Assembly (NCBI GenBank): GCA_965231215.1
Contig: OZ246423.1
Location: 768,001 to 832,000 of the forward strand
DNA from: Candidatus Altimarinota bacterium
GTDB lineage: Bacteria; Patescibacteriota; Gracilibacteria; UBA4473
Length of the DNA stretch: 64,000 nt
Direction: 5' to 3'
Shown: in pieces, positions 44,078 through 58,177 of the stretch
Numbering within the stretch: the first letter of the stretch is position 1
Layout: the number at the start of each line of letters is the position of its first letter
Program-made: the position numbers and the translations under genes
The notes under the pieces: model-generated
Told to the model about the DNA's origin: nothing
Seen by the model: the letters and a program-made list of their open reading frames with translations, nothing else
Database searches by the model: none

Positions 44078-44154
44078 GGGGCCTTAGCTTAGTTGGCTAG
44101 AGCGCCTGCTTTGCAAGCAGGAGGTCATCGGTTCGAATCCGATAGGCTCCACCA
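44078..44154 (+). tRNA. tRNA-Ala (TGC)
   Basis: GGGGCCT acceptor strand with G3:U70, CCTGC-ttTGCaa-GCAGG anticodon arm, CCA. Confidence 0.96.
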
Positions 44155-44155
44155 A

Positions 44156-44230
44156 GGGTGGGTAGCTCAGTGGTAGAGCATCTGGCTTTTAACCAGTTGG
44201 CCGCGAGTTCGATCCTCGCCCCACCCACCA
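44156..44230 (+). tRNA. tRNA-Lys (TTT); integration target
   Basis: GGGTGGG/CCCACCC acceptor stem, ctTTTaa loop, CCA; starts 1 nt after tRNA-Ala. Confidence 0.95.
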
Positions 44231-45813
44231 TAAGAGTTTTTCCACTTATTTGAATCCTCCCCCTCATTGGGGTTGGACTCAGAGTCAGAAGTGGATTTCT
44301 CAATCGTTAACCTCAGTTGAACATCATTCTTGGTAATGATGATTTTTCTGATTAGGAGCTGGCAAATAGCTCTCTGCTCTTGGTAGGAGAGGTTTTTTAG
44401 CCGGCTTTTGTACTGTGCGGAATAGTTTTTTAGCGTCTCTACTTTACGCTTTAAATCCGTGTTAGTAGCAAGTTCTGCCTCAATAAATTCCAATTCTTCT
44501 GAAGCATCTTTTTTGTTCTTAGCGTATATGGTAGCTTGCTCAGAGGCTTCTTCCATGCTGATTAACTCTCCTGAAACTAAGGTTAAAAAATTTGCCCTTC
44601 CTCGCTCTAGCGTCTCTAATTTAGCTTCAACTTCTTCCTTACGTGCTTTAAGTTTATTGATTCTGTCTTCCTTGCTCATCTCCTCTACGAGGTTTTCAAG
44701 CGTGCCTTTAGGATTGCTAATAATGCTGACTAATTTATCCCACACTAGAGTCTCTAATATTCTTTCTGAAATAGCTCCATTGGTACACTTCTCTCCCGTA
44801 TTCTTCTGTCGTGGACAACGGTAGTTTTTAGCCAACGTCCCACTCTTCATTTTTTGTGCGTATGGAGTCATTTTTCGTCCACAACAACCACAGTAAACTT
44901 TGTTTGAAAATAGGTACTCATGTTTAGCTCTATTGGAAGGGCGGTCAGCTTTGCGCTTCTTTTTCACTTTTTCAAATAGCTCCTCAGAAATTATTGAGGG
45001 ACATTCTAAAGGGATTTCTTTAAAGTAGTATCGCCCTATGTAGGCCTCGTTATCGAGTATTTTTCTTATCTGTCCCGGACTCCAACTGTAGGCAGGGTTA
45101 CGCTCCATACGGGTCTGTTCTTTCTCTGTCAGCGCTTCTTTAAGGTCACATCTTCGTGGTATCTTTAAAAGTTTGAGCTCGTCCCTTATTTTTTCGACAC
45201 TAAAGCCTTTGTTATACCAGTTAAAAATCTTCTGCACTATCTTCGATTCTTCTGGATGAACCTGCATAACACGGTTTTCATCAGATAAATAACCAAAGGG
45301 AATCGTTCCACCAACATATCGCCCTTTCTTAGCTGCAGCAATTTTCCCATTAAGAGTGCGTTCCATAATAAGACTTCTTTCGAACTCCGCTAACATGGCA
45401 AAAATTTGAAACATAAGTTTTCCCACGGCAGTTGTATCAAAGTGTGGTTCACTCACCGAAATAAATTGAATTTCTTTGCCTCCAATCTTCTCAACGGTCT
45501 CTAGCAACAAACGAGTATTTCTAAACAAACGGTCTATGCGATAAACCATAACCGCATCAACTTCTTTACGCTCTACCTTTTCCATTAGCTTTTTTAGCTG
45601 AGGCCTTTCGTCTACTTCTAAACTTCCTGAATAGCCCTCTTCCTGAAAGATGTTCTCTGGCTTTAATTCCCACTTCACTCCAACATCATTTTGGTTTTTC
45701 GATTTTATGTATTCCTTAATTTTTGCCTTTTGAGCATCAAGCCCAAATTTTTGTACTTGCTCATCCGTTGAAACACGAATGTAAGCAGCGATTTTAATAA
45801 TTTTTTTAGTCAT
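44167..45813 (-). CDS. Large serine recombinase (integrase) with zinc ribbon and coiled coil
   Basis: YIRVSTDEQ, DRLFR, AEFER, PFGY and CGCCG...YRC motifs; the last ~20 codons are antisense to tRNA-Lys. Confidence 0.93.
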   Translation of the reverse strand: MTKKIIKIAAYIRVSTDEQVQKFGLDAQKAKIKEYIKSKNQNDVGVKWELKPENIFQEEGYSGSLEVDERPQLKKLMEKVERKEVDAVMVYRIDRLFRNTRLLLETVEKIGGKEIQFISVSEPHFDTTAVGKLMFQIFAMLAEFERSLIMERTLNGKIAAAKKGRYVGGTIPFGYLSDENRVMQVHPEESKIVQKIFNWYNKGFSVEKIRDELKLLKIPRRCDLKEALTEKEQTRMERNPAYSWSPGQIRKILDNEAYIGRYYFKEIPLECPSIISEELFEKVKKKRKADRPSNRAKHEYLFSNKVYCGCCGRKMTPYAQKMKSGTLAKNYRCPRQKNTGEKCTNGAISERILETLVWDKLVSIISNPKGTLENLVEEMSKEDRINKLKARKEEVEAKLETLERGRANFLTLVSGELISMEEASEQATIYAKNKKDASEELEFIEAELATNTDLKRKVETLKNYSAQYKSRLKNLSYQEQRAICQLLIRKIIITKNDVQLRLTIEKSTSDSESNPNEGEDSNKWKNSYGGWGEDRTRGQLVKSQMLYH

Positions 45814-45929
45814 TTTAATAAAAAGTTAATTGATAATGTTTTAGGTTCGTTAAAACCTTTAAAAATTCCGCTTCTAACGGATTTTGGTTGAGCATTAAGC
45901 TCTTTGTTCGTTTTTTGTCCTAAAGCCTG

Positions 45930-46358
45930 TTAGGGCTTAGAATTTAAAAGACCCTTTACTGTATGCAAAGGATTGTGGTTAGTTTGTTTCCATTTCTGGA
46001 AATCAATGTGTGACTGTCGAGTTGCTTTCTCAACCAGTTCATCAAATACACCTTGTTCATAGGCATACTTCTGAAAAGTAATAAGTTGGCTCTCGCAGAT
46101 AGTGGATAATCCTTCAGCTTTCCAAACTAAGTATTTAGGTTCTAGCATTTCAAAAGTGTCACATTCTCCTGTTGCTATACAACGAACCTTTGCTGTTTCT
46201 ACCTCCATATCTTCGACATATCTCATGGCCTCATCTAACACTGCTGATTTTTTGTCGAGGTCATACATAAAATAAATAGACCAAACTAGCGGGACAAATC
46301 CCGCCAAGAACCCATACAAAGTGTGTTTTATTCGGTCTTTATTCCAACCTTTCATCAC
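45930..46358 (-). CDS. Single-TM hypothetical protein
   Basis: N-terminal hydrophobic helix; 142 aa. Confidence 0.6.
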   Translation of the reverse strand: MMKGWNKDRIKHTLYGFLAGFVPLVWSIYFMYDLDKKSAVLDEAMRYVEDMEVETAKVRCIATGECDTFEMLEPKYLVWKAEGLSTICESQLITFQKYAYEQGVFDELVEKATRQSHIDFQKWKQTNHNPLHTVKGLLNSKP

Positions 46359-46429
46359 TAACCATTATATTTTTTAGTTGAAATGTTACAACTATTTATG
46401 TGACAGAATCAAGATAAAATGGTTTTTTG

Positions 46430-46645
46430 ATGAGACAAGAAATCAAGGAACCAAAATTACTTTCTAGCGGAGACGCTAGGAAGCTGCTTGGCATTTCTTA
46501 TCAGGCCATAGAAAAGCTTGTAGACTCTGGAAAGCTTCCTTTTTTCAGTACTTCTTCAGGTAAAATTTTTAGAGAAAGCGATGTCCTAGTGATTCAAAGC
46601 GAACGAGAGGCAAAAGCGAAAACCGACAAGCGGGTTAAACTCTAG
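46430..46645 (+). CDS. Excisionase-like MerR/HTH_17 DNA-binding protein
   Basis: LLSSGDARKLLGIS...LVDSGKLP...KIFRESDV pattern. Confidence 0.8.
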   Translation: MRQEIKEPKLLSSGDARKLLGISYQAIEKLVDSGKLPFFSTSSGKIFRESDVLVIQSEREAKAKTDKRVKL

Positions 46646-46648
46646 TAG

Positions 46649-47404
46649 CTATTGTTCTAACTCAAAAACCCAGTATTTAAATTTACATGGAGGGTTTAAG
46701 TTTCTTCCTAGCTCTTTTTGAGTGAGGCCTAAGAACCTCAACATCATATCTTCAAAAAGGTATCTGAAACCTGAAACAAATACATCCAAAAAGTATTCCA
46801 AATCTTTCATCTCAGAGAACTCAGATTCGTAAACTCTTTTCGCATGTTCATATCCCTTAGGGGTTAGAGAGCGAGATAGCCCAGACAGTCCGCCATGGTG
46901 AGTTATACCGTTTCTGATATGACTAATTAGTTCAGCACAGTCTAGCGACATTTGTACGTCAAAGTCTTTATAAACCATATCAAACAATGGCTTAACTACC
47001 CGACCTCCAACCTGTCCCATTCCGCCACTTTCGGGGAACTCCGCTCGATATATGTAGCCCTCTAGTAACATCAAGGCATAAGCAAATTGTAAACGTGCTT
47101 TCTCGCTCTGTACAAAATTAGGTGATTGCATTTCTAGATAGTAGTCATACATGTAAGCCATAACCCCATCATGCTTTTTCTGCCACTCATCGCTTGTGAT
47201 AGTGGCAAAAATTTTATGAATATTTCTGATATTAGTGTTTGGGTCAAAATCAAAGGTTCTCTCGACGATTCTTATGACGAGGTCTAAGTCTTGCCCAAGA
47301 TATATAGCCCCAAGTACAGAACTACCTTCGACTGATAGGTCTTCTGGTTTATAACCGTCTGGGGCGGGTACGGTGTATTCTTCTTTAGTTGGCATCTTGT
47401 TCAA
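46649..47404 (-). CDS. Putative HEPN-domain RNase
   Basis: Helical protein with IRNGITHHG (R-X4-H) and an upstream LLE. Confidence 0.55.
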   Translation of the reverse strand: MNKMPTKEEYTVPAPDGYKPEDLSVEGSSVLGAIYLGQDLDLVIRIVERTFDFDPNTNIRNIHKIFATITSDEWQKKHDGVMAYMYDYYLEMQSPNFVQSEKARLQFAYALMLLEGYIYRAEFPESGGMGQVGGRVVKPLFDMVYKDFDVQMSLDCAELISHIRNGITHHGGLSGLSRSLTPKGYEHAKRVYESEFSEMKDLEYFLDVFVSGFRYLFEDMMLRFLGLTQKELGRNLNPPCKFKYWVFELEQ

Positions 47405-49880
47405 TTTTTTCCAAAAATTTCCAAATCAGACTTTCTGGAGTTCTTTCGTCAAACTCTTTAAAAAGAGTTTCATATGTTGCATCGAACCAATTAAAGTAGC
47501 CTGATTGGTCTGACAACCTCCACAATTGATTTCCTCGTGAATAAAAATCTCTACTTCTTTCTGGATAAAAAGAATGGTTAAAAGAACCACGCTCAACAAA
47601 CTCAGAATTTTCTTTCAGAAATTGCTTCAGCCTTTTATACAGTGGGTTGTTACTTCTCAGGTAAACATCAAGCCAGAATCCGTACATTAACAGTCTTTTG
47701 TAGAGATGTCTTCTCCTATGACAGTGCTCATCATTTTGTTCATTAAGTGATTCAAAATAATGGATAACTCTATCAATAGAGCGTTCTAGTAAAGCTTTAT
47801 GGTTCTCATCGCTGTAATAATCTTTAACAGCAATAGCTATAATTACCGAAAATTCATCTATACAATTCACCGGAAAAAATGTTCTTTCCAAATAACGATA
47901 TCTCACATCAAAAAGGAAAGAGAAATCGACCAAAGTTTTCCTTAACTGTCTCTTCAAACTTTCATTCTCTGTTTTGTGGTATGTGCCATGGACTAGAGCA
48001 AAGAGGTGCATTGTCGCCCCAACCTGTTCTTTTTTCAGAGCCTCTTTATCATCTTCACCAACCGAATTTGCTTCTCCTGCAACGTTTAAAAGAAGCCAAA
48101 ACAAATCTCTGTGTTTGTACTGGATAGCTTCTTTTTGTTCATTTGTTAAAGTGCTTTCGATACCTGTTTGAGCTATGATTCTAGAAACAACATCAAAAAT
48201 ATTTTTATAGAGTTGAGAGTCCAACGACTTCTTTGCTGAGATAGAAGATTTGTGGAGGCTGATTAGAGCCTCTTGAGAACCTCTTTTGGCATCATCAAAA
48301 AATTGTCCCCAATGGCGCTGGTCTGAGGTTTTAAGACTTTCTAAGACAATTTCCAACATAGACTGAACTGACTGCAGGCACTTAGATTGAGCCCATCCAA
48401 TCATGTGCGGCTTAAGGACTCCTGATTCTTTAATAATTGCTGGTATAGCGGCAAAATAAGTGGCTAAAGACTTTAGATGTTCCAACACAAAAGTTGCCTT
48501 TATAAATTCTTCCTTTTCGACGTACACTGAGGCGATTTTTTTAAGGTAGGCTATACTCATTCCTGTAGCAGGCGTATTTTCTTTAGCAAAAGACTGAGTA
48601 GCGAAATCTTCTAGTAAATCCTCGAGGAGGCTCGTTACTTGAGCGCTATTTATGTGGAACTCTTCGTCTGAAACATTCTCTAGAAGTAGCAAAGAAGTTT
48701 CCCCAACAAAGTGAACTATCACCTCTATTCCATCCTCGTAGTTAAGATTAAGAGCCTTTTTGAAAAGTAGCTTAGTCTCCGGATACATCACCTCTGATAT
48801 GTACTTATCGCTAGAACTCCATACAAACCCTCGTTTTTGAATGTAGAAGCGATTAATTTCATACAACGCAGAGAAAACACCATCAAGTGAGTCAAATTGC
48901 TCGCTGGCAAGCTTAGCGTTCGCTACACGATAAAGAATTTTTAACTGAGGCAGTATGTCCTCAAAGTCTTGGTCTAAAATATTGAATCTGCGTTCTCCTT
49001 CAAAAAACAAATATTGGGCTTTGTAGTCCCGTTGCCTACCATCAAGGAAATAAAACCATGAGTGAATTATGTTCACAGGAGCGAATAACCAATTTCTAAT
49101 TTTCACTCGTTTTGGTATTCCTTCAGTCAAAATATCCATCCTATTTAGGTCTGAAGGGATGTGTGGTCTTGGGTAAAAACGCAAGCTCAACTGTTTCTTT
49201 AGAGCTTTTGTAAAGTATGCTATTACGTTTTGTTCTGGAGCTGAATAGTCACGAAAACTTTTTACTATGAACGCAAACAGGGCTACCGTAAAAGTAAAAA
49301 CTTGGGCAATTACAGAGTAGTCAAATGGCAAAAATTCTGTTTTAACTTCTTCTGTTAACACTGCCTTCTGAAGGATAAATAAAAGCGAAAAGGCTAATAA
49401 AACAGATAAAATCAGGTAAACAACAAAGAATTTATTAGTTGTGTTAAAAGCATAGGCTCGAGCAATATTGCCGTGCCATTCTTTAGAAATCCTGCTTATG
49501 ATATCTAAGAAAAATGGAACTCCTAAAGCTAGAACTCCAATCAAAAGCGCTAGATAGCTTTCAAGAATTCTAAGGGTTAAATCATTTATGCTTTTGGGAG
49601 TATTTGCAAAAACAAAAAACCAAGTCACTACTCCGATTAGTACCAAAATCTCAGTAATATTTTCTTTAAGGAAGACCATGATTCTTGATTGTGTGGCTTC
49701 CCATCTACCAGAATCCATAAAGATAGCCTCTCCTGAAACAAACAAAATTAGCCCTAGAATCGTTAATGTTTCATAGCTAACCCCAAAGACCACCATCGCA
49801 AAAATAATCGCTGAGTATACCCCTATCTTGACAGGTAAAACTCGCAGATGGTTCAACAGGACATTTCTATCTAAGTTCAT
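47385..49880 (-). CDS. Large membrane protein (DUF2254-like TM region plus long helical domain)
   Basis: About 6 N-terminal TM helices, then ~600 aa of helical sequence; overlaps both neighbours. Confidence 0.65.
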   Translation of the reverse strand: MNLDRNVLLNHLRVLPVKIGVYSAIIFAMVVFGVSYETLTILGLILFVSGEAIFMDSGRWEATQSRIMVFLKENITEILVLIGVVTWFFVFANTPKSINDLTLRILESYLALLIGVLALGVPFFLDIISRISKEWHGNIARAYAFNTTNKFFVVYLILSVLLAFSLLFILQKAVLTEEVKTEFLPFDYSVIAQVFTFTVALFAFIVKSFRDYSAPEQNVIAYFTKALKKQLSLRFYPRPHIPSDLNRMDILTEGIPKRVKIRNWLFAPVNIIHSWFYFLDGRQRDYKAQYLFFEGERRFNILDQDFEDILPQLKILYRVANAKLASEQFDSLDGVFSALYEINRFYIQKRGFVWSSSDKYISEVMYPETKLLFKKALNLNYEDGIEVIVHFVGETSLLLLENVSDEEFHINSAQVTSLLEDLLEDFATQSFAKENTPATGMSIAYLKKIASVYVEKEEFIKATFVLEHLKSLATYFAAIPAIIKESGVLKPHMIGWAQSKCLQSVQSMLEIVLESLKTSDQRHWGQFFDDAKRGSQEALISLHKSSISAKKSLDSQLYKNIFDVVSRIIAQTGIESTLTNEQKEAIQYKHRDLFWLLLNVAGEANSVGEDDKEALKKEQVGATMHLFALVHGTYHKTENESLKRQLRKTLVDFSFLFDVRYRYLERTFFPVNCIDEFSVIIAIAVKDYYSDENHKALLERSIDRVIHYFESLNEQNDEHCHRRRHLYKRLLMYGFWLDVYLRSNNPLYKRLKQFLKENSEFVERGSFNHSFYPERSRDFYSRGNQLWRLSDQSGYFNWFDATYETLFKEFDERTPESLIWKFLEKIEQDAN

Positions 49881-50193
49881 TCAAAAGGCTTATGGATAAG
49901 TGAACCAAGTAGACAAATAGCACCGCTATGAGAGCACCTAAAAGCCAAATGTTTAGCAGACTCTTAACAACTTCGTATAAGGGCAGATGACTATTACCAA
50001 TTAATACTGTTGGTAGTGTAAACCATATGTCAATGTAGCCTAAAGCTATCGAAAGCCCCCCCCAAAGCAGAAAGTAGATAGCAACTCTAAAAATAATTGA
50101 GTAAAAATGCTGCCATAGGCTTAGAAGGGTGGACAGAAAAGATAGTAGTAATTTCTGTGCCTGGACTTTTATCATCTCTTCTATTTTGTTCAT
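49867..50193 (-). CDS. Small 2-3 TM membrane protein
   Basis: 108 aa, strongly hydrophobic; overlaps the next gene by 14 bp. Confidence 0.6.
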   Translation of the reverse strand: MNKIEEMIKVQAQKLLLSFLSTLLSLWQHFYSIIFRVAIYFLLWGGLSIALGYIDIWFTLPTVLIGNSHLPLYEVVKSLLNIWLLGALIAVLFVYLVHLSISLLNELR

Positions 50194-50211
50194 ACTTTAA
50201 ATCATAGCTAC

Positions 50212-51147
50212 TTAGACTATTTTTTCTACTTTCGATTCTAGGTCCTCAAACCTGTTCTGCGTATAGATAGCGGTAGTGTTTAGGTTAGAGTGTCCTAGAA
50301 TCTGAGAGAGTGCCACGAGGTCTGAAGGATTCTTTTTGAGAAAGGAATAGGCAAAGGTATGGCGTAGTTGGTGAGGGCAGGTTTTTAATCCTGCTTTTCG
50401 AGCGTACTTCTCCACTATCTTATTTACCCCTAGTGTCGTGAGGTCTCCTCGCTGTCCCTGAAAGATTCTGGAGTGGCTCCCTATGAGTTCTTTCTGCTGT
50501 TCATAGAATTCATTAAAAACAGTCCTCAGTTTTAAGTTCATAGGGATTTTTCGGCTCTTTGTCCCTTTGCCACACCTTATCAGTATAAAGCCACTCCTAG
50601 GCGAGATATGTACGTCTGAATGATTCAATGATACTAGTTCTGAACATCGTAGTCCCGCCCACAAGAAGCAGCTAAAAATCAGTTGGTCTCTTAGATTCCC
50701 TCTCAGCTCAACCTCTCTCATCAGTCTGCGTGCTTCAGCTTCGGTTAATGACTTTGGGGCTAAGGCTACGTTCTGTACTAATTTGAGGTTGTCCGTGAGA
50801 TTTTTTTCAATAAACCCAAGTTCATGAGCCGTTTTAAAGAGTGTTTTTAGGCTGGAAATATGTCGGTTGATAGTGGAAGGCTTATACCGCCGTATAAGTA
50901 ATTCCTTTTTGAAATCTAGGAGGTCTGAAAAGGTGCAACGGTCAAAAGAAAAGGGCTCATGGTTAGTACTCTTGAACCACAATAGAAACTTCTTACTGTC
51001 TGCCATGAAAGCAGCCTTAGTATTTCTAGAGGTGTCCTTGGTAAGAAGTACGTTTTCAATGATTCGTTCTAGGTCAGATTTTGCTCGTCTGACTTTATTT
51101 AGCGAGTTTTGAGGGGGATAAATAATACCTTGGGGGGTGTTTTGCAT
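50212..51147 (-). CDS. Tyrosine recombinase (XerC/TnpI-like)
   Basis: GLRCSEL, GKG, HQLRHTF, LGH and TAIY catalytic residues; SAM-like N-terminal domain. Confidence 0.92.
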   Translation of the reverse strand: MQNTPQGIIYPPQNSLNKVRRAKSDLERIIENVLLTKDTSRNTKAAFMADSKKFLLWFKSTNHEPFSFDRCTFSDLLDFKKELLIRRYKPSTINRHISSLKTLFKTAHELGFIEKNLTDNLKLVQNVALAPKSLTEAEARRLMREVELRGNLRDQLIFSCFLWAGLRCSELVSLNHSDVHISPRSGFILIRCGKGTKSRKIPMNLKLRTVFNEFYEQQKELIGSHSRIFQGQRGDLTTLGVNKIVEKYARKAGLKTCPHQLRHTFAYSFLKKNPSDLVALSQILGHSNLNTTAIYTQNRFEDLESKVEKIV

Positions 51148-51442
51148 CTGTTTAAGGGTTAAAAAGTAAAAATAAGGATAATTATTTAGCGAGTATAAGT
51201 TCGCTTAGTACCAGTATCAAGGTAGAAAGGGGGTAGGTAGGTCACTCACTTGGAACGATGTATGGCGCTGTGTTTTATGAAATTTGTCAAAGTTGAGATT
51301 TGTGCAAAGTTCAGCCAATTTTGAATACCGAAATGTCAAAGAGCAGATGTTAAATCAAGGTAGACTTTTCCCAATACTGAATGACTTTATATTTCCAGTT
51401 CAGTAAAGGCTTAGTGCTATTTTTTGATTTAGGCTTATGAGC

Positions 51443-51895
51443 TTAAAACTCATCCAGAGAGAAAAAGTAGCCTTGGTGTAAATGGCTTGGAAGTACTTCA
51501 TCTTCTACGTCTTGAACCAGGTTCTTCATCAACTTCAAGCATCCCGTTATAGTTTTTGATTTCACCAGGTGCGTTTGTTGACTGTTAACGAACTTCGTCA
51601 CTTCTAACTTGTAAAACTCCTGTCCTACAAAGCGGTAGATACGAATGAGGTAGTAGCCATTGTTGTAAACTACTAAGACTTTTCTTCCCTCGGAGTACTT
51701 GTCACAGCTAGGCTTTTTGAGAAGCACTAGAGCTGGGAGTAGTAACCTTTTTTGTTGAGGTGGTATATCTTCCAACTCTTTGACTGAGAGAGCGGATATG
51801 CGCATTAAGACGCTCTCCATAGTCCAGTTAGGTAGAAGCCCTGCCACCTCTAGTTTTTTCGCACTATGTGCGTGTACAAAAAACCGGTCATTCAT
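51443..51895 (-). CDS. Hypothetical protein
   Basis: 150 aa ORF, overlapped by an upstream small ORF. Confidence 0.6.
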   Translation of the reverse strand: MNDRFFVHAHSAKKLEVAGLLPNWTMESVLMRISALSVKELEDIPPQQKRLLLPALVLLKKPSCDKYSEGRKVLVVYNNGYYLIRIYRFVGQEFYKLEVTKFVNSQQTHLVKSKTITGCLKLMKNLVQDVEDEVLPSHLHQGYFFSLDEF

Positions 51896-52031
51896 TTGAA
51901 TGTTGGGTTAAGAAATTTTTGGCAGGCACAACAGTCTCCACTACGGCCTCCATAATCTCGGTGCAGTCTTCTGCATCGCCCGAGAAGGAGATTTTTAGTG
52001 TGAGCTCGTCAAGACTTCTTTTGCTTGCCAT
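51888..52031 (-). CDS. 47 aa small ORF (MASKRSLDELTLKISFSGDAEDC...)
   Basis: ATG at 52031, TGA at 51890-51888, 8-bp overlap with the next start; absent from the ORF track. Confidence 0.45.
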   Translation of the reverse strand: MASKRSLDELTLKISFSGDAEDCTEIMEAVVETVVPAKNFLTQHSNE

Positions 52032-52054
52032 GCGCTAACTAAAACACACATGGG

Positions 52055-52082
52055 TCGCCAAAACCTCGCCATTAAGTCGCCA
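52055..52082. promoter_or_regulatory. Three TCGCCA direct repeats at 11-bp periodicity
   Basis: Copies at 52055, 52066 and 52077; further copy at 52150 and an inverted copy at 52180. Confidence 0.6.
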
Positions 52083-52194
52083 TAAGAGGGTTACATTTAA
52101 TAGCACTTAAAAGCACTCTTAGAGAGACTTAAGTTGATTTTTACAAATATCGCCAACCTGAAACTTCTTCTATGTTTTTTGGCGACTATTTTGG

Positions 52195-53157
52195 CTATGT
52201 TAAGAAGTATCCACTTCCTCTCTTACACTTAATATAGTTAATATTTTTACCATCGGTGTCACCAAGCAAAGCGTTGAGTTTACACATAGCATCAGTTAAT
52301 CTTCGCTTTTTTTCTTTAACTTCCATTTTCTTTGGAAGTTTCATCAATTCAAATAGGTCATCGTAAATAATGGTGCTACCATTGGCTATAATTAGTTTTG
52401 CAAATATATTCCTCTTTGTCTCTGAAATTTCTATACGGTGGTTATCAAAAGTGACTTCGGTTGTATTCATTGAATCTATATGTGAACTAAGCCTCCCACT
52501 ATACAAAACGTGAAACCCCTTATAAATTAGAGGTTCTTTGTTTTCTGAAGCCAAAATTTTGGCACTAGTTTGTTCCAGAGTAAATTCAAGTTCGTTTAAC
52601 AGTCCTTGGTCTAATACCCTAGAAGTAATAGATACTTTAGATATTTTAATTCTTTGTTTTTCTTCTAGGTAAAAAATTAGCAAGTACCAGTTTATCCCAT
52701 TGGTGACTTCCTTAGGCAAGTTTCTAATACTAAACTGGTTCCCTAAAGAATCACCGATAGTTTTAAGAAGTTTGTTTGATGATTTAAATAAAGATTTCTT
52801 ACTATTAAGAGCTCTGGATTGGCTAACTTTTCGAGTTAGGTAGTTTGTACAACTTTCCCTAAAGTTTTTAGGCAGTTTTATACTAACAATCCTTTCGAAT
52901 TCGGCTCCAACATCAGCTATGTACTGAGGAGCTACATCTTTTTCAATCACCTGCAGGTCACTTTCTATACAGTTATTTCTTAATAAGTCTGGAAAGTTTT
53001 CCAGTGTTTCTGAAGCACCCAAAGTAGAAGTCGTCAGGCTAAATTCAAATTCTGTAATTTTCCCCCACCTACTCCTCTCTTTTATATCATACAAAAGAAT
53101 TAAAGGCGCTACACTATTAAAGCAAGATTCTAGGTGTTTAAACTCGTCATCACTCAT
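52195..53157 (-). CDS. Protein with a C-terminal OmpR/PhoB-type winged-helix domain and no receiver domain
   Basis: IFAKLI..NG..IIYDDL...LTDAMCKLN..L...IKCKRGSGY pattern. Confidence 0.7.
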   Translation of the reverse strand: MSDDEFKHLESCFNSVAPLILLYDIKERSRWGKITEFEFSLTTSTLGASETLENFPDLLRNNCIESDLQVIEKDVAPQYIADVGAEFERIVSIKLPKNFRESCTNYLTRKVSQSRALNSKKSLFKSSNKLLKTIGDSLGNQFSIRNLPKEVTNGINWYLLIFYLEEKQRIKISKVSITSRVLDQGLLNELEFTLEQTSAKILASENKEPLIYKGFHVLYSGRLSSHIDSMNTTEVTFDNHRIEISETKRNIFAKLIIANGSTIIYDDLFELMKLPKKMEVKEKKRRLTDAMCKLNALLGDTDGKNINYIKCKRGSGYFLT

Positions 53158-53687
53158 CAGTAATTAACTCTACCTCAAAAAGTTGAAAAAGTTAACAAAG
53201 ATGAAAAAGTGATTTCATTGGAAAAGTACAAAAATTTGGACTTATACGGTCATATAACCTAACCTTTGGGCTTATCCAATAAAACCTAACGCTTCAAATC
53301 AAAACAAATTTTAAAATAACTACACGCGCTCTTATTACCACAAAAAAATTGACATACCTCTTGGTGTGGCTTTTTTTTATTTGCATTGAGGGGAGAGCTC
53401 AAGTCCAGAGTTCGATACGAGGAGCAAGCATAACAACAAGGGCCCCCACAGGGGGTAGTTGGTTTTTCAAGACGCGTAGCGGTTTGTGCGAGGGGCGATG
53501 ACCATGAGTTTGATATTTCTAATTTAGATAAAGAGATATTCCTCCATTAATTTAATTCCTCGCTAGAAGGATCCTGTTTAGAACCGCTTACTTCCCACCC
53601 CCAAGGTTGGTAGGTCTAAAGGCGCCAAAATCTTGTTTTGATAAAGTTTAAGTTTTAACATGTGTATGATTCTTAACTTTTTAAAAA

Positions 53688-54128
53688 ATGAAAAAACAGG
53701 AAATAGCCCTCCCAATTCCCCAGTGCAATAGTATGGGGTTGGCCTTAACGCGGATAGGTGTAGGTCTCTTTTTTGCACTTTTTGGACTTATGAAATTTAT
53801 GGGAGCTCTAAAAAGTGACCCGCAATTATTCGGCATGGTAGAAGGTATTTTTGGGACAGGAGGTATGATGTTGACAGTGCTTGTTTGGGGACTGGTAGCG
53901 GCTGAACTTGGCGGCGGAATTATGGTCATTTTAGGAAAGCTAGTCCCTAAAATTATGTATCAACTTTCACTCGTTTCTTTTATAATCATTACGGTGATAG
54001 GCACTGTCTTTATGCACATGGGGAATGTTCCACAAATGCTCTGGCATGGAATGTTAATGCTTATTTTGGTAGGCCTTATTATGAGTGAACCTAAGTGTGC
54101 TTGTGGTATTACCGGAAGTAAAAAATAA
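53688..54128 (+). CDS. DoxX-family membrane protein
   Basis: LTRIGVGLFF..FG..K and AELGGG motifs; 4 TM helices. Confidence 0.85.
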   Translation: MKKQEIALPIPQCNSMGLALTRIGVGLFFALFGLMKFMGALKSDPQLFGMVEGIFGTGGMMLTVLVWGLVAAELGGGIMVILGKLVPKIMYQLSLVSFIIITVIGTVFMHMGNVPQMLWHGMLMLILVGLIMSEPKCACGITGSKK

Positions 54129-54143
54129 CTCAATATTTAGATT

Positions 54144-54179
54144 TAAAAAAAGTGGCTTGTTTTGAGCCGCTTTTTTTTT
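54144..54179 (+). terminator. Intrinsic terminator-like hairpin
   Basis: A7-GTGGCTT-gttt-TGAGCCGC-T-tract. Confidence 0.6.
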
Positions 54180-54191
54180 ATGTTGGAGGGG

Positions 54192-54530
54192 ATGTTTATC
54201 TATGAATTAAACAATATTGAAGTCTGGGTTTACCTAGGGATAACTCCAGAAGAGCAAGGTTCAAAGCAAAAAGTTTTAATCTCTTTGGCTTTTGAATTTG
54301 ATGGTTCAAAAGCCGCTAAATCTGATGATATTAAAGAGACTCAAGATTATTTTTTAATTCAGCAGCATATCAAAAACTTCCCCAAAGAAAATACCTATGC
54401 CCTCTTAGAAAAGCTCCATAAAGATTTATCGGAGAGTCTGAACACCCTGTTTCCTGAAATCGTAATCAAAAATTTGAGTCTTGAAAAATTCCCATTTGAA
54501 GATGGATCTATAACCATAAAAACCCCTTGA
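54192..54530 (+). CDS. folB: Dihydroneopterin aldolase
   Basis: YLGITPEEQ..Q, SDDIKET.DY and ALLE motifs; GGAGG RBS before the ATG at 54192. Confidence 0.82.
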   Translation: MFIYELNNIEVWVYLGITPEEQGSKQKVLISLAFEFDGSKAAKSDDIKETQDYFLIQQHIKNFPKENTYALLEKLHKDLSESLNTLFPEIVIKNLSLEKFPFEDGSITIKTP

Positions 54531-54913
54531 AGGGTTCTTCTGGAACCATTCTCACACGTTAAATAGACCCGTTGACAATACTGTGTTTAAGGGGGGCTTC
54601 AGGAAATACTAAACCACCTCAAGGCACTCGAAGCGTCAAACAAAAAACCCCTCGCCAAGGTTGAAGGCCTTGGAAGTCAAAATGACGCAATTCTTAGCTG
54701 TATAAAAAAGTTACTCGCTTCTTCATTAAAACCTAATCACGGAGAGGACTAGTGTAATGCTGGTAATACCACTTATTTGCAAAAATTCTCCAATGCCGCA
54801 TAGCCTTCAGACTGGTAAAATTTCCCCAAAGTCAAACTTTTTTTGTCAATAAAATTTGACAAAATTGCAATTTTCCCTAGAAAATAGAGATACTTATCCT
54901 AATTTTTGCACAA

Positions 54914-55462
54914 ATGGGAATCAATGAAGGACGGCTTCCGGCAGACGAGGAAGTAGTAACTAGTGGCAAAAAAATTGCTAATCCCGCTGTTATGGTAGCA
55001 TTAGCAGGAGCTCTAACAGCGGCAACACCAGCCATAGCTGAAGACAAGACCGGCCAAGCCACGTTAGCAGCCGCTACCACAGAGACATCACAGCAAATTA
55101 CAGCCGCTACCCATTGCCCGACTTATGCCAGAGAAGGAAACACCCGCGCAGAAAAAAAAGCACGGCTTGTAGAATGTCGAACACATAAGCAACAGCTTGA
55201 AATTGCAGCACTGGACAATCGAATTGCGGAACTCCAATCATACATCACAGAACAAGGACTGGTTCTCAATAAGCTCCGTATTCTGAACGACAAAGGTGAA
55301 GAACTCGCTCGAATCGTGGAAGAAAATGGGCGACTGAGACTGGAAATTGGTGATATCAATGCAGAGATTAGTGGACTAAAGGCAAGTCAGGAAGCTACTC
55401 GACAACGTATTATAGCCACTCTTCAAAGGATTGATGCCTTCCTCGCTTCACGGCAAGGGTAG
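54914..55462 (+). CDS. Coiled-coil hypothetical protein with an internal signal-peptide-like segment
   Basis: KKIANPAVMVALAGALTAATPAIA|ED followed by heptad repeats. Confidence 0.65.
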   Translation: MGINEGRLPADEEVVTSGKKIANPAVMVALAGALTAATPAIAEDKTGQATLAAATTETSQQITAATHCPTYAREGNTRAEKKARLVECRTHKQQLEIAALDNRIAELQSYITEQGLVLNKLRILNDKGEELARIVEENGRLRLEIGDINAEISGLKASQEATRQRIIATLQRIDAFLASRQG

Positions 55463-58100: not shown

Positions 58101-58177
58101 TGGAGCCACCTGTCGGAATCGAACCGACGACCTGCGGGTTACAAATCCGCTGCTCTAGCCAGCTGAGCTAAGGTGGC
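58101..58177 (-). tRNA. tRNA-Thr (TGT)
   Basis: GCCACCT/AGGTGGC acceptor stem, ttTGTaa loop, GTCGG-TTCGATT-CCGAC T arm, CCA. Confidence 0.95.

What the first reader, a model, noticed from the sequence alone, without database searches (positions are those of the whole stretch)
44167..53340. Serine-integrase element whose att site lies inside its own gene: integration swaps the integrase C-terminus
The left junction is ...CCACCC-ACCA-TAAGAGTTTTTCCACTTATTT and the right is AAATAACTACACGCGCTCTTATT-ACCA-CAAAA. Joining them gives attP = AAATAA-N9-CTCTTAT-TACC-ATAAGAG-N9-TTATTT, a symmetric two-part inverted repeat as expected for a large serine recombinase, with only a 4-bp core at the tRNA CCA end. 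The integrase frame crosses this site. Integrated, it ends ...KNSYG-GWGEDRTRGQLVKSQMLYH (antisense tRNA-Lys); excised, it would end ...KNSYG-NKSACSYFKICFDLKR. This could be a state-dependent stability or directionality switch, and its mRNA would be antisense to the tRNA. It also defines a complete integrase/attB/attP set.
Basis: partly seen in the sequence, partly recalled or inferred. Interest (0 to 1): 0.78.

Follow-up and report, generated by a model that had tools for sequence, protein, structure and literature searches.

The report
Serine integrase reading through its att site
A 9.1-kb mobile element sits at the end of this small bacterium's only lysine tRNA gene, and the gene for the enzyme that inserts it runs across the insertion point, so the enzyme's floppy tail changes on insertion; many related elements share this layout, and whether it serves a purpose is unknown.

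Summary
A 548-aa large serine recombinase (LSR) gene (44167-45813, minus strand) runs 64 nt antisense into tRNA-Lys(UUU) (44156-44230). Only ACCA is shared between the two predicted element ends.

The boundaries are supported. Three same-genus genomes have an empty tRNA-Lys site followed by a terminator hairpin, and the 5' stem of one hairpin is identical to the sequence 12 nt past the predicted right end. The same palindrome test finds a far end with an identical NCCA core in five related elements.

The layout is not a one-off. In 64 homologous loci of the same class, the integrase ORF enters a convergent tRNA or tmRNA in 48, and 46 of those use one reading frame. It recurs in other phyla.

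The tail swap follows from the sequence. It affects a region predicted to be disordered, and the tails are not conserved. A regulatory switch therefore remains a hypothesis. No circle or empty-site junctions were seen, but only assembled contigs were available.

Verdict: a real LSR element with attP embedded in the 3' end of its own gene. It belongs to a broad family that I did not find described in eight literature searches.

The parts
44078..44154 (+). tRNA-Ala(UGC), first gene of the tRNA pair upstream of the insertion
   Evidence: ARAGORN. The same tRNA-Ala then tRNA-Lys order occurs in G002, G003 and G004.
44156..44230 (+). tRNA-Lys(UUU). Its 3' end is the B arm of attB and attL. It is the only tRNA-Lys gene ARAGORN finds in the 1.33-Mb genome.
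   Evidence: 35 tRNAs, one Lys.
44227..44230 (+). attL core ACCA (discriminator plus CCA). The crossover dinucleotide is inferred to be AC.
   Evidence: This is the only identity between the two junctions. The symmetry centre of the reconstructed attP falls between A and C.
44231..44254 (+). P' arm of attP, embedded in the last codons of int before the junction. It holds the inner motif ATAAGAG and the outer motif TTATTT.
   Evidence: The motif TTTTC-n-ACTTATTT sits at a fixed distance from CCA in the five closest homolog loci.
44167..45813 (-). Large serine recombinase (integrase), 548 aa when integrated. The last 64 nt, including the stop, are antisense to tRNA-Lys.
   Evidence: catalytic-domain residues invariant, including R13, S15 and R70. 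The AF2 model is folded to about residue 505.
45930..46358 (-). 142-aa ORF next to int, with no family match
46427..46645 (+). 72-aa HTH_17 excisionase-like protein, a candidate directionality factor or regulator
   Evidence: Pfam PF12728, E 3.2e-6, 27.7 bits against a cut-off of 27. PHROG 66 'excisionase and transcriptional regulator', 3.4e-6.
46649..47404 (-). 251-aa ORF, with no family match
47385..49880 (-). 831-aa ORF with a hydrophobic N-terminal part by eye, and no family match
49867..50193 (-). 108-aa hydrophobic ORF
50212..51147 (-). Tyrosine recombinase (XerC/D- or phage-integrase-like), internal to the element. Most likely a resolvase or accessory recombinase rather than the integrase.
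   Evidence: PF00589, E 2.1e-28. PHROG 216. Homologs sit inside 3 of the 7 other related elements.
51443..51895 (-). 150-aa ORF, with a homolog in the G261 element
   Evidence: Family F9.
52195..53157 (-). 320-aa ORF, the last gene before the P arm. Its homolog is also the last gene before the predicted P arm of the G349 element.
   Evidence: Family F10. The G349 homolog has a weak Trans_reg_C match.
53314..53336 (+). P arm of attP, with the outer motif AAATAA and the inner motif CTCTTAT
53337..53340 (+). attR core ACCA, the right end of the 9,110-bp element (44231-53340)
53341..53378 (+). B' arm and the displaced terminator of the tRNA operon (hairpin 53353-53368 followed by T8)
   Evidence: Terminator-like site. 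The hairpin stem ACATACC is identical to the one that follows the empty tRNA-Lys site of G002.

Best explanation
This is a 9,110-bp integrative element (44231-53340) inserted by its own large serine recombinase at the CCA end of the genome's only tRNA-Lys gene.

How insertion works (inferred). attP is an imperfect inverted repeat of about 50 bp, centred on the discriminator and C74 dinucleotide (AC). Its P' half lies inside the last codons of int. Recombination with attB, which is the tRNA 3' end plus the spacer before the operon terminator, leaves the tRNA intact because both B' and P' begin with CA.

Consequence for the protein. The int ORF reads across the crossover point, so integration replaces its last 16 residues with 19 residues of antisense tRNA.

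How common it is. This layout is inherited. It defines a large clade of LSRs, abundant in Peribacteria/Peregrinibacteria-type Patescibacteria and present elsewhere, that target tRNA and tmRNA 3' ends and always read the CCA in the same frame (xxT GGN).

What the swap most likely means. It affects a disordered tail and is most likely a tolerated by-product of packing half of attP into the gene. The ORF is, however, kept open up to the junction in every case, which I cannot explain.

Shown versus inferred. Shown here: the anatomy, the empty sites, the family-wide pattern, and a predicted disordered tail in a structure model. Inferred: the exact crossover dinucleotide, current mobility, and any function of the tails.
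For: LSR identity: all three Pfam domains match, the catalytic-domain residues are invariant in a 22-sequence alignment, and PDB matches include TP901-1 integrase and a 500-aa integrase chain.

Junctions: the ORF overlaps the tRNA by 64 nt. Only ACCA is shared between the junctions. The reconstructed attP pairs at 15 of 23 scored positions, with 0.022 such sites expected by chance.

Empty sites: G004, G003 and G002 (same genus) have tRNA-Lys(ttt) followed about 10 nt later by a hairpin and a T-run, with no insert. The 5' half of the G002 hairpin stem matches window 53352-53358. A terminator-like site lies at 53353-53368.

Same geometry in relatives: the top NCCA-core hit scores 18/23 in G349 (tRNA-Met), 18/23 in G280 (tRNA-Val), 17/23 in G261 (tRNA-Arg), 21/23 in G388 (tRNA-Thr) and 16/23 in G373 (tRNA-Met). 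The expected number of chance hits is 0.003-0.016 each. G060 has an empty tRNA-Thr site about 1.1 kb from the same conserved flanking gene that lies about 1.3 kb beyond the far end of the G388 element.

Shared genes: the tyrosine recombinase and the last gene before the P arm recur among these elements.

Family pattern: the int ORF enters a convergent tRNA or tmRNA in 25 of 30 loci and 23 of 34 further loci from the class. It does so in 7 of 10 loci from the phylum sample. It does so in 12 of 80 loci from all prokaryotes, including Ruminococcus, Omnitrophota and Actinomycetota MAGs.

Reading frame: 25 of 25, 21 of 23 and 12 of 12 share one frame.

Open frame to the junction: in the 90 nt before the junction, stops occur in the int frame in 0 of 25 loci, against 24 of 25 and 20 of 25 in the other two frames.

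Disordered tail: AF2 gives pLDDT below 50 for residues 506-548, and the last strand is at 498-502.
Against: No read or contig shows the circle or the empty site of this strain. Only Logan contigs were available, and they show the integrated form. No close relative of the integrase (above 42% identity) was found in any collection, so there is no strain-level comparison.

The right boundary rests on three things: a 4-bp core, a palindrome significant at about 0.02, and a 7-nt hairpin-stem match to a diverged congener. The intergenic alignment to G004 was uninformative.

In the more distant subfamily the palindrome test found no far end within 20 kb in 9 loci (L057-L065). In the two tmRNA loci (L054, L055) the best palindrome hits were weak (13 and 12 of 23). 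Some loci carry 13-19-nt repeats of the tRNA or tmRNA 3' end beyond the int gene (L052, L054, L055, L063). So att sites in those branches may share a longer core, and the crossover point there is not established.

A tyrosine recombinase is also present in the element.
Confidence: 0.85

Rival explanations
1. The tail swap is a functional switch. The excised and integrated isoforms would differ in stability or in the direction of the reaction. Alternatively, in the integrated state the int mRNA runs antisense into a strongly transcribed tRNA gene, so that Int is made mainly from the free circle.
For: The ORF is open up to the junction in 25 of 25 loci, although the other two frames carry stops in 24 and 20 of 25. 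The frame across CCA is the same in 58 of 60 overlapping loci. Predicted excised tails share a (S/T)YF-like start followed by aromatic or hydrophobic residues, and one ends in LVAA. There is a precedent: in mycobacteriophage integration-dependent immunity, attP lies in the repressor ORF and integration removes a C-terminal degradation tag (PMC3694055, passages read).
Against: The tail is predicted disordered. Integrated tails are antisense tRNA of very variable length. Excised tails are 16-66 aa with no common end. The YF motif is what the palindromic DNA motif encodes. The two copies of the far end in G280 and G388, and the G207/G369 pair, differ mostly by non-synonymous changes. The conserved frame can be explained by descent plus the DNA-level constraint of the half-site. 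No expression or protein data exist.
Confidence: 0.15
2. The tyrosine recombinase (50212-51147) is the real integrase, as in classical tRNA-targeting islands, and the LSR has another role such as resolution or inversion.
For: tRNA 3' ends are the classical targets of tyrosine integrases (PMC8092301, passages read; PMC10484663, passages read). A tyrosine recombinase is present here and in 3 of the 7 other related elements. One relative (G388) has a 19-nt direct repeat of the tRNA 3' end 155 nt beyond the far end.
Against: Here the two junctions share only 4 bp, and no repeat of the tRNA 3' end of 10 nt or more lies in the roughly 19.6 kb downstream that was scanned. That fits a serine integrase, not a tyrosine integrase. 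The tyrosine recombinase is internal, about 6 kb from the tRNA, and no homolog was found in 4 of the 8 elements compared. The LSR always abuts the tRNA with a fixed frame. The joined ends form an LSR-type inverted repeat.
Confidence: 0.04
3. The element is a fixed, no longer mobile remnant, and the ORF extension into the tRNA is an accident of a stop-poor, GC-rich antisense tRNA.
For: No circle or empty-site junction was found in the contigs of four runs, and element depth (about 289) is close to the flanks (283-333).
Against: All nine ORFs are intact and the int catalytic residues are conserved. The element is absent from the three congeners in which the tRNA-Lys site was examined. The two half-sites still pair. 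Contigs cannot show rare forms. The same architecture in 48 of 64 class loci is not an accident.
Confidence: 0.1

Closest known systems
Phage and ICE large serine recombinases (phiC31, Bxb1, A118/LI, TP901-1, SPbeta SprA)
   Same: The domain order is the same: resolvase, recombinase domain, zinc ribbon with a long coiled coil. The att sites are short and simple, attP is an imperfect inverted repeat, and only a few bases of identity lie at the crossover. This matches the 5-8 bp cores described for mycobacteriophage Int-S systems (PMC8092301, passages read).
   Different: The best phage matches are only about 29-31% identical (Streptococcus prophages). The target is the CCA end of a tRNA rather than a protein-coding ORF; in that M. 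abscessus paper all three Int-S sites are in ORFs. Half of attP lies inside the integrase's own coding sequence, so the ORF crosses the crossover point. I recall no characterised LSR with either property, and eight literature searches found none.
SSV-type ('suicidal') archaeal tyrosine integrases
   Same: The recombination site is carried inside the integrase gene, giving a compact int-att module, and the targets are tRNA genes (PMC8371274, passages read).
   Different: The recombinase family is unrelated (tyrosine rather than serine). There the gene is split and inactivated, whereas here only a disordered C-terminal tail is exchanged and the gene stays whole. That review states that recombinases disrupting their own gene are found only in archaea.
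Integration-dependent immunity of mycobacteriophages (BPs, Brujita, Charlie type)
   Same: attP lies inside an ORF near its 3' end, so the viral and prophage forms of the protein have different C-termini (PMC3694055, passages read).
   Different: There the ORF is the repressor, the integrase is a tyrosine recombinase, and removal of the tag is experimentally shown to matter. Here the ORF is the integrase itself and no effect is shown.
Classical tRNA/tmRNA-targeting genomic islands with tyrosine integrases
   Same: The site is the 3' end of a tRNA or tmRNA gene, the integrase gene sits next to the tRNA, and the tRNA is kept intact.
   Different: Those elements carry a direct repeat of tens of bases of the tRNA 3' part (25-76 bp common cores in PMC8092301). 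This one shares 4 bp and is moved by a serine recombinase.

Membership tests
Large serine recombinase (serine integrase) | N-terminal resolvase-type catalytic domain with the serine nucleophile | tested here: met
   PF00239, E 1.4e-37, residues 8-166. Y11, R13, S15, T16, Q19 and R70 are invariant in 22 homologs.
Large serine recombinase (serine integrase) | Recombinase domain followed by a zinc-ribbon domain | tested here: met
   PF07508, E 1.4e-16 (187-288), and PF13408, E 2.1e-13 (301-361).
Large serine recombinase (serine integrase) | Long coiled coil inserted in the zinc-ribbon domain | tested here: met
   The AF2 model has helices 382-414 and 420-474, followed by strands 488-493 and 498-502. 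This is a prediction only.
Large serine recombinase (serine integrase) | Simple attP of about 40-50 bp, an imperfect inverted repeat around a central dinucleotide, with only a few bases shared with attB | tested here: met
   15 of 23 positions pair, against 0.022 expected by chance. The shared core is 4 bp. The same geometry appears in five related elements.
Large serine recombinase (serine integrase) | Catalyses attP x attB without host factors, and the reverse reaction needs a directionality factor | not testable with these tools
   No activity data exist. The candidate factors (the 72-aa HTH_17 protein and the 142-aa ORF) are guesses.
SSV-type suicidal integrase | Tyrosine recombinase fold and catalytic residues | tested here: not met
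   The integrase next to the tRNA is a serine recombinase.
SSV-type suicidal integrase | att site inside the integrase gene, so that integration splits and inactivates it | tested here: not met
   The site is inside the ORF, but only the residues after G528 change and the 548-aa ORF stays whole.
Tyrosine-integrase tRNA island | Direct repeat of the tRNA 3' segment (typically 15 bp or more) at the far end | tested here: not met
   The 20-nt 3' end with up to 3 mismatches matches only itself. No exact repeat of 10 nt or more lies in the roughly 19.6 kb downstream that was scanned.
Integration-dependent immunity switch | attP inside a repressor gene, with a C-terminal degradation tag removed by integration | tested here: not met
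   The ORF crossed is the integrase, and no repressor gene spans the site. No common tag appears in 10 predicted excised tails from 8 elements.

The most novel reading that the evidence does not exclude
A widespread and apparently undescribed clade of serine integrases uses the universal CCA end of tRNAs and tmRNA as the crossover point and keeps half of attP inside its own coding sequence. Translation, and the mRNA, always cross the recombination site in one fixed frame. On this reading, the read-through is selected because it lets the element sense its own state. The excised circle would make one Int isoform from an undisturbed transcript. The integrated copy would make another isoform from an mRNA that collides with, and is antisense to, an essential and highly transcribed tRNA. 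That would make it a bacterial, serine-recombinase counterpart of archaeal SSV-type integrases and of mycobacteriophage integration-dependent switches.
Probability: 0.2. Interest if true: 0.8.

Novelty: new variant of a known kind. Interest (0 to 1): 0.6.

Why it matters
Serine integrases are the standard tools for unidirectional genome insertion, and their natural targets are usually described as protein-coding genes. This finding points to a large natural set of them aimed at tRNA and tmRNA 3' ends. More than 15 different tRNA identities appear among the homolog loci examined here. The integrase and half of its attP form one compact cassette, and attB can be read directly from the host tRNA.

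That would give a ready series of predicted integrase/attP/attB triplets, including for Patescibacteria, which have almost no genetic tools. It also raises a testable question: why is the ORF always kept open across the crossover site?

For this genome, the sole tRNA-Lys gene is overlapped antisense by a mobile-element gene and has been separated from its terminator.

Tried and rejected
Reads: the look-up of sequencing runs found four runs from two studies, all kept as Logan contigs. Read laying showed the integrated form in X2, with contigs spanning 44202-51192 and 51163-55000, and no joint for a circle or an empty site. Contigs drop rare forms, so this says nothing either way. The loose end at 44230 in X2 and X3 matches the sequence after tRNA-Lys(ctt) of the G004-type congener. 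It is not an empty site of this strain.

Close relatives of the integrase: none were found in metagenome contigs (two hits at 22-23% identity) or in viral contigs.

Nucleotide alignment of the right flank to G004 was uninformative. Rfam at a permissive E-value on 53200-53750 gave only chance-level hits. Folding 53337-53395 was not better than shuffles (z -0.95), so the terminator call rests on the pattern scan and on the congeners.

PADLOC gave no hit for the eight cargo proteins. PHROGs matched only the HTH protein and the tyrosine recombinase. Pfam on ten proteins of related elements gave little. The cargo remains unknown, and nothing marks the element as a phage.

My first palindrome control used a centre one base off and gave a meaningless 'obs 5'. 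It was redone correctly.

The palindrome scan found no convincing far end within 20 kb for the distant subfamily (L057-L065) and only weak ones for the two tmRNA loci. A search for an empty site for the G349 element found no match in 25 relatives.

I looked for similarity between the B and P arms, and for a 5-bp-shifted outer motif in attB, by eye only and saw none. I make no claim about it.

Supplementary files of papers were not consulted. Large LSR att-site catalogues may list tRNA targets that I could not see; I recall Durrant et al. 2023, which is cited in PMC12884075 but which I did not read.

Literature: eight searches found no description of an LSR whose ORF crosses its att site at a tRNA end. 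That is absence in this library only.

Full report
**1. What is in the sequence**

ARAGORN finds tRNA-Ala(tgc) at 44078-44154 and tRNA-Lys(ttt) at 44156-44230, both on the plus strand. The tRNA-Lys ends in ACCA at 44227-44230. On the minus strand an ORF runs from 45813 to 44167. It is 548 aa, and its last 64 nt, stop included, are antisense to the tRNA. Pfam finds the three domains of a large serine recombinase (LSR): Resolvase (1.4e-37), Recombinase (1.4e-16) and Zn_ribbon_recom (2.1e-13). PDB sequence matches include TP901-1 integrase and other resolvase-family proteins.

The sequence ACCA recurs at 53337-53340. It also reproduces both C-terminal tails, 548 aa when integrated and 545 aa for the circle.

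**2. Is the right end real?**

- Only four bases are shared by the two junctions. The 20-nt 3' end of the tRNA, with up to three mismatches, occurs nowhere else in the window. No exact repeat of 10 nt or more lies in the roughly 19.6 kb downstream that was scanned. That fits a serine recombinase and not a tyrosine integrase.
- I scored every ACCA in the 18.4 kb to the right for pairing with the tRNA-proximal arm, with the geometry fixed at a centre between the discriminator and C74. Of 68 sites, 53340 scores 15 of 23 and the next best scores 11. The expected number of sites scoring 15 or more is 0.022. An earlier control with the centre misplaced is void.
- The genome is a single 1.326-Mb contig. 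Three genomes of the same genus have the same tRNA-Ala and tRNA-Lys(ttt) neighbourhood without the 9-kb insert. These are G004, G003 and G002.
- In all three the tRNA is followed, after about ten bases, by a hairpin and a T-run. In the window, a terminator-like hairpin with T8 lies at 53353-53368, 13 nt after the predicted end. Its 5' stem, ACATACC, is identical to the stem in G002.
- Synteny alone brackets the end between 53158 and 53687.

Together these place the element at 44231-53340 (9,110 bp), give or take the ambiguity within ACCA.

**3. The same thing in relatives**

The integrase has no close relative anywhere I could search. The best match is 42% identity. Distant homologs are common, however: 68 of 401 genomes sampled from the class have one at E <= 1e-20.

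*ORF running into a tRNA*
- In the 30 loci fetched, the homolog's ORF runs antisense into the 3' end of a convergent tRNA or tmRNA in 25.
- L024 and L025 were first read with the wrong code. Under table 11, L024 ends 22 nt inside the tRNA. L025 has the same tRNA end and the same frame.
- In 34 further loci the count is 23. One more has a tRNA 111 nt beyond the ORF, two are cut by contig ends, and eight have no convergent tRNA in the flank.

*Reading frame across the CCA end*
- The overlap length is always 1 modulo 3 in the first set (25 of 25) and in 21 of the 23 in the second set. The CCA is therefore read as xxT GGN, which gives a nearly invariant glycine (G529 in alignment A3).
- Two loci use another frame (…WW…).

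*Outside the class*
- In other classes of the phylum, 5 of 8 new loci show the overlap, three of them in the WW frame.
- In a scan of one genome per prokaryotic species, 12 of the best 80 loci show it, all in the main frame.
- Seven of those are MAGs titled Peribacteria, Peregrinibacteria, Gracilibacteria or Altimarinota. The other five are titled Ruminococcus or Ruminococcaceae (three), Omnitrophota and Actinomycetota.
- Those record titles, the small genome and the TGA-recoded relatives suggest the window's host is a Peribacteria/Peregrinibacteria-type member of the Patescibacteria. I did not try to identify the record.

**4. Far ends of related elements**

I applied the palindrome test unchanged to 20-kb stretches of homolog loci. 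The best NCCA-core hits, with the expected number of chance hits in brackets, were:

| Locus | tRNA | Score | Distance | Expected by chance |
|---|---|---|---|---|
| G349 | tRNA-Met | 18/23 | +12,918 | 0.0045 |
| G280 | tRNA-Val | 18/23 | +15,887 and +16,919 | 0.016 |
| G261 | tRNA-Arg | 17/23 | +12,389 | 0.0031 |
| G388 | tRNA-Thr | 21/23 | +11,244 and +12,774 | 0.011 |
| G373 | tRNA-Met | 16/23 | +10,043 | 0.0026 |

- The P' arms of the closest subfamily share TTTTC-n-ACTTATTT at a fixed distance from CCA, and the P arms carry its inverse. This is a DNA motif that on one side also has to encode N-K-x-K.
- The elements share genes: a tyrosine recombinase in 4 of 8, and the last gene before the P arm in the window and G349.
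- For G388, a same-family genome (G060) has tRNA-Thr about 1.1 kb from the same conserved gene that lies about 1.3 kb beyond the far end of the G388 element, with no element in between.
- In the distant subfamily the test failed (L057-L065). Some loci instead carry 13-19-nt copies of the tRNA or tmRNA end, sometimes several in tandem. The att sites and crossover point of those branches are therefore open.

**5. What the tail swap amounts to**

- An AlphaFold2 model built on 22 homologs has mean pLDDT 78. It is folded through the coiled coil (helices 382-474) and the last strands (488-493, 498-502). pLDDT is below 50 for 506-548.
- The junction codon (G528/G529) therefore lies about 25 residues into a tail predicted to be disordered.
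- Integrated tails in relatives are antisense tRNA, from about 3 to more than 30 residues.
- Predicted excised tails are 16-66 residues. They begin with what the palindromic motif encodes, (S/T)YF, and continue with Phe-rich sequence because the DNA there is A-rich. They end differently in each element.
- Near-identical copies differ mostly by non-synonymous changes.

None of this points to a selected peptide.

One result does not fit pure neutrality. In the 90 nt before the junction, the int frame has no stop in 25 of 25 loci, while the other frames have stops in 24 and 20 of 25. So the ORF is kept open to the crossover site through a poorly conserved, disordered region. Possible reasons are the half-site's sequence constraint, a role for the lysine-rich stretch, or a real need to translate or transcribe across the site.

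**6. Mechanism proposed**

The circle carries attP across the last codons of int. Int dimers bind attP and attB, which is the acceptor and T-arm end of tRNA-Lys plus the spacer before the terminator. They cut at the central dinucleotide, probably AC, and exchange strands. Both B' and P' start with CA, so the tRNA keeps its CCA.

The tRNA operon loses its terminator, which now lies 9.1 kb away, and int becomes convergent with it. ARAGORN finds only one tRNA-Lys gene in this genome. G004 also has a tRNA-Lys(ctt) at this locus.

Excision would need a directionality factor. The 72-aa HTH_17 excisionase-like protein and the 142-aa ORF next to int are candidates only. The internal tyrosine recombinase is more likely a resolvase of the free form. 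All of this is inference from anatomy and from what is established for LSRs.

**7. Comparison with what is known**

By domains and att-site logic, this is a member of the LSR family. It differs from characterised members in target and in the position of attP. In the M. abscessus prophage survey that I read in passages, Int-S systems have 5-8-bp cores and all three of their sites lie within ORFs, while tRNA sites belong to Int-Y systems with 25-76-bp cores (PMC8092301). A genomic-island survey likewise ties tRNA targets to tyrosine recombinases (PMC10484663).

Carrying the att site inside the integrase gene is known for archaeal SSV-type tyrosine integrases. A review says that recombinases disrupting their own gene occur only in archaea (PMC8371274). 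In that system the gene is destroyed, whereas here it is not.

A C-terminus changed by integration is known for the repressor of some mycobacteriophages, where it is functional (PMC3694055).

Eight searches found no paper describing this LSR layout. Supplements and large att-site catalogues were not visible to me.

**8. Verdict**

The switch is unproven, at about 15-20%. I rate this a new variant of a known kind, with interest 0.6. It is an unexpectedly regular and widespread architecture that yields many predicted integrase/attP/attB sets aimed at tRNA ends, and it leaves open why the reading frame is always kept open across the recombination site.

Noticed in passing
window 44156-44230; whole genome G000: ARAGORN finds only one tRNA-Lys gene (UUU) among 35 tRNAs in the 1.33-Mb genome, and it is the one overlapped by int. 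The congener G004 has an extra tRNA-Lys(ctt) and a tRNA-Thr at this locus. In the window, tRNA-Thr(tgt) lies at 58101-58177 on the other strand.
   Followed up: partly
window 53540-53610: This stretch lies between the element and the DoxX-like gene. MAFFT aligns it loosely with the tRNA-Lys(ctt) of G004, and it ends in ...CCCACCCCCA. It may be a decayed relic of that tRNA. The similarity is weak and Rfam gave nothing.
   Followed up: partly
L050 (G280) +15887/+16919; L052 (G388) +11244/+12774; L063 (G054) +9961/+10134/+10304: The far-end arm plus core occurs two or three times in tandem, 0.17-1.5 kb apart, with diverged flanks. This looks like leftovers of earlier related elements stacked at the same tRNA. 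If so, a resident attL or a degraded element can still serve as a target, which would mean low specificity for the B' side.
   Followed up: partly
L052 13205-13380 (G388): A 19-nt exact copy of the tRNA-Thr 3' end lies 155 nt beyond the second far end. The intervening GC-rich stretch is of unknown nature. It may be the scar of a different element with a longer core.
   Followed up: no
window 46045-46328, 49207-49375, 50591-51194, 51434-51972: A run from another study, labelled coral metagenome, holds low-depth contigs (about 3-4x) that are mostly 90-95% identical to four cargo regions of the element (one short piece about 99%), and none for int. A related element or strain therefore exists elsewhere.
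   Followed up: no
G000:C1:345163-346029: The genome has a second, very distant serine-recombinase-like ORF (22% identity to residues 68-364; open frame 438 aa).
   Followed up: no
L185, L189, L201 (Ruminococcus/Ruminococcaceae MAGs); L145 (Omnitrophota); L138 (Actinomycetota, tRNA-SeC): LSR homologs outside the Patescibacteria also read 22 or 58 nt into a convergent tRNA in the same frame. The three Ruminococcus-type proteins end ...GDPYGN inside tRNA-Glu.
   Followed up: partly
L098 (G300), L117 (G355), L086-L088 (another class of the phylum): A second lineage reads the CCA end in another frame, giving a ...WW... junction at tRNA-Lys or tRNA-Val.
   Followed up: no
window 53442-53456: A perfect GC-rich hairpin (GCCCCC-ACA-GGGGG) followed by a T-rich run lies between the element and the DoxX-like gene. 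It is a second terminator-like site, scored on both strands.
   Followed up: no
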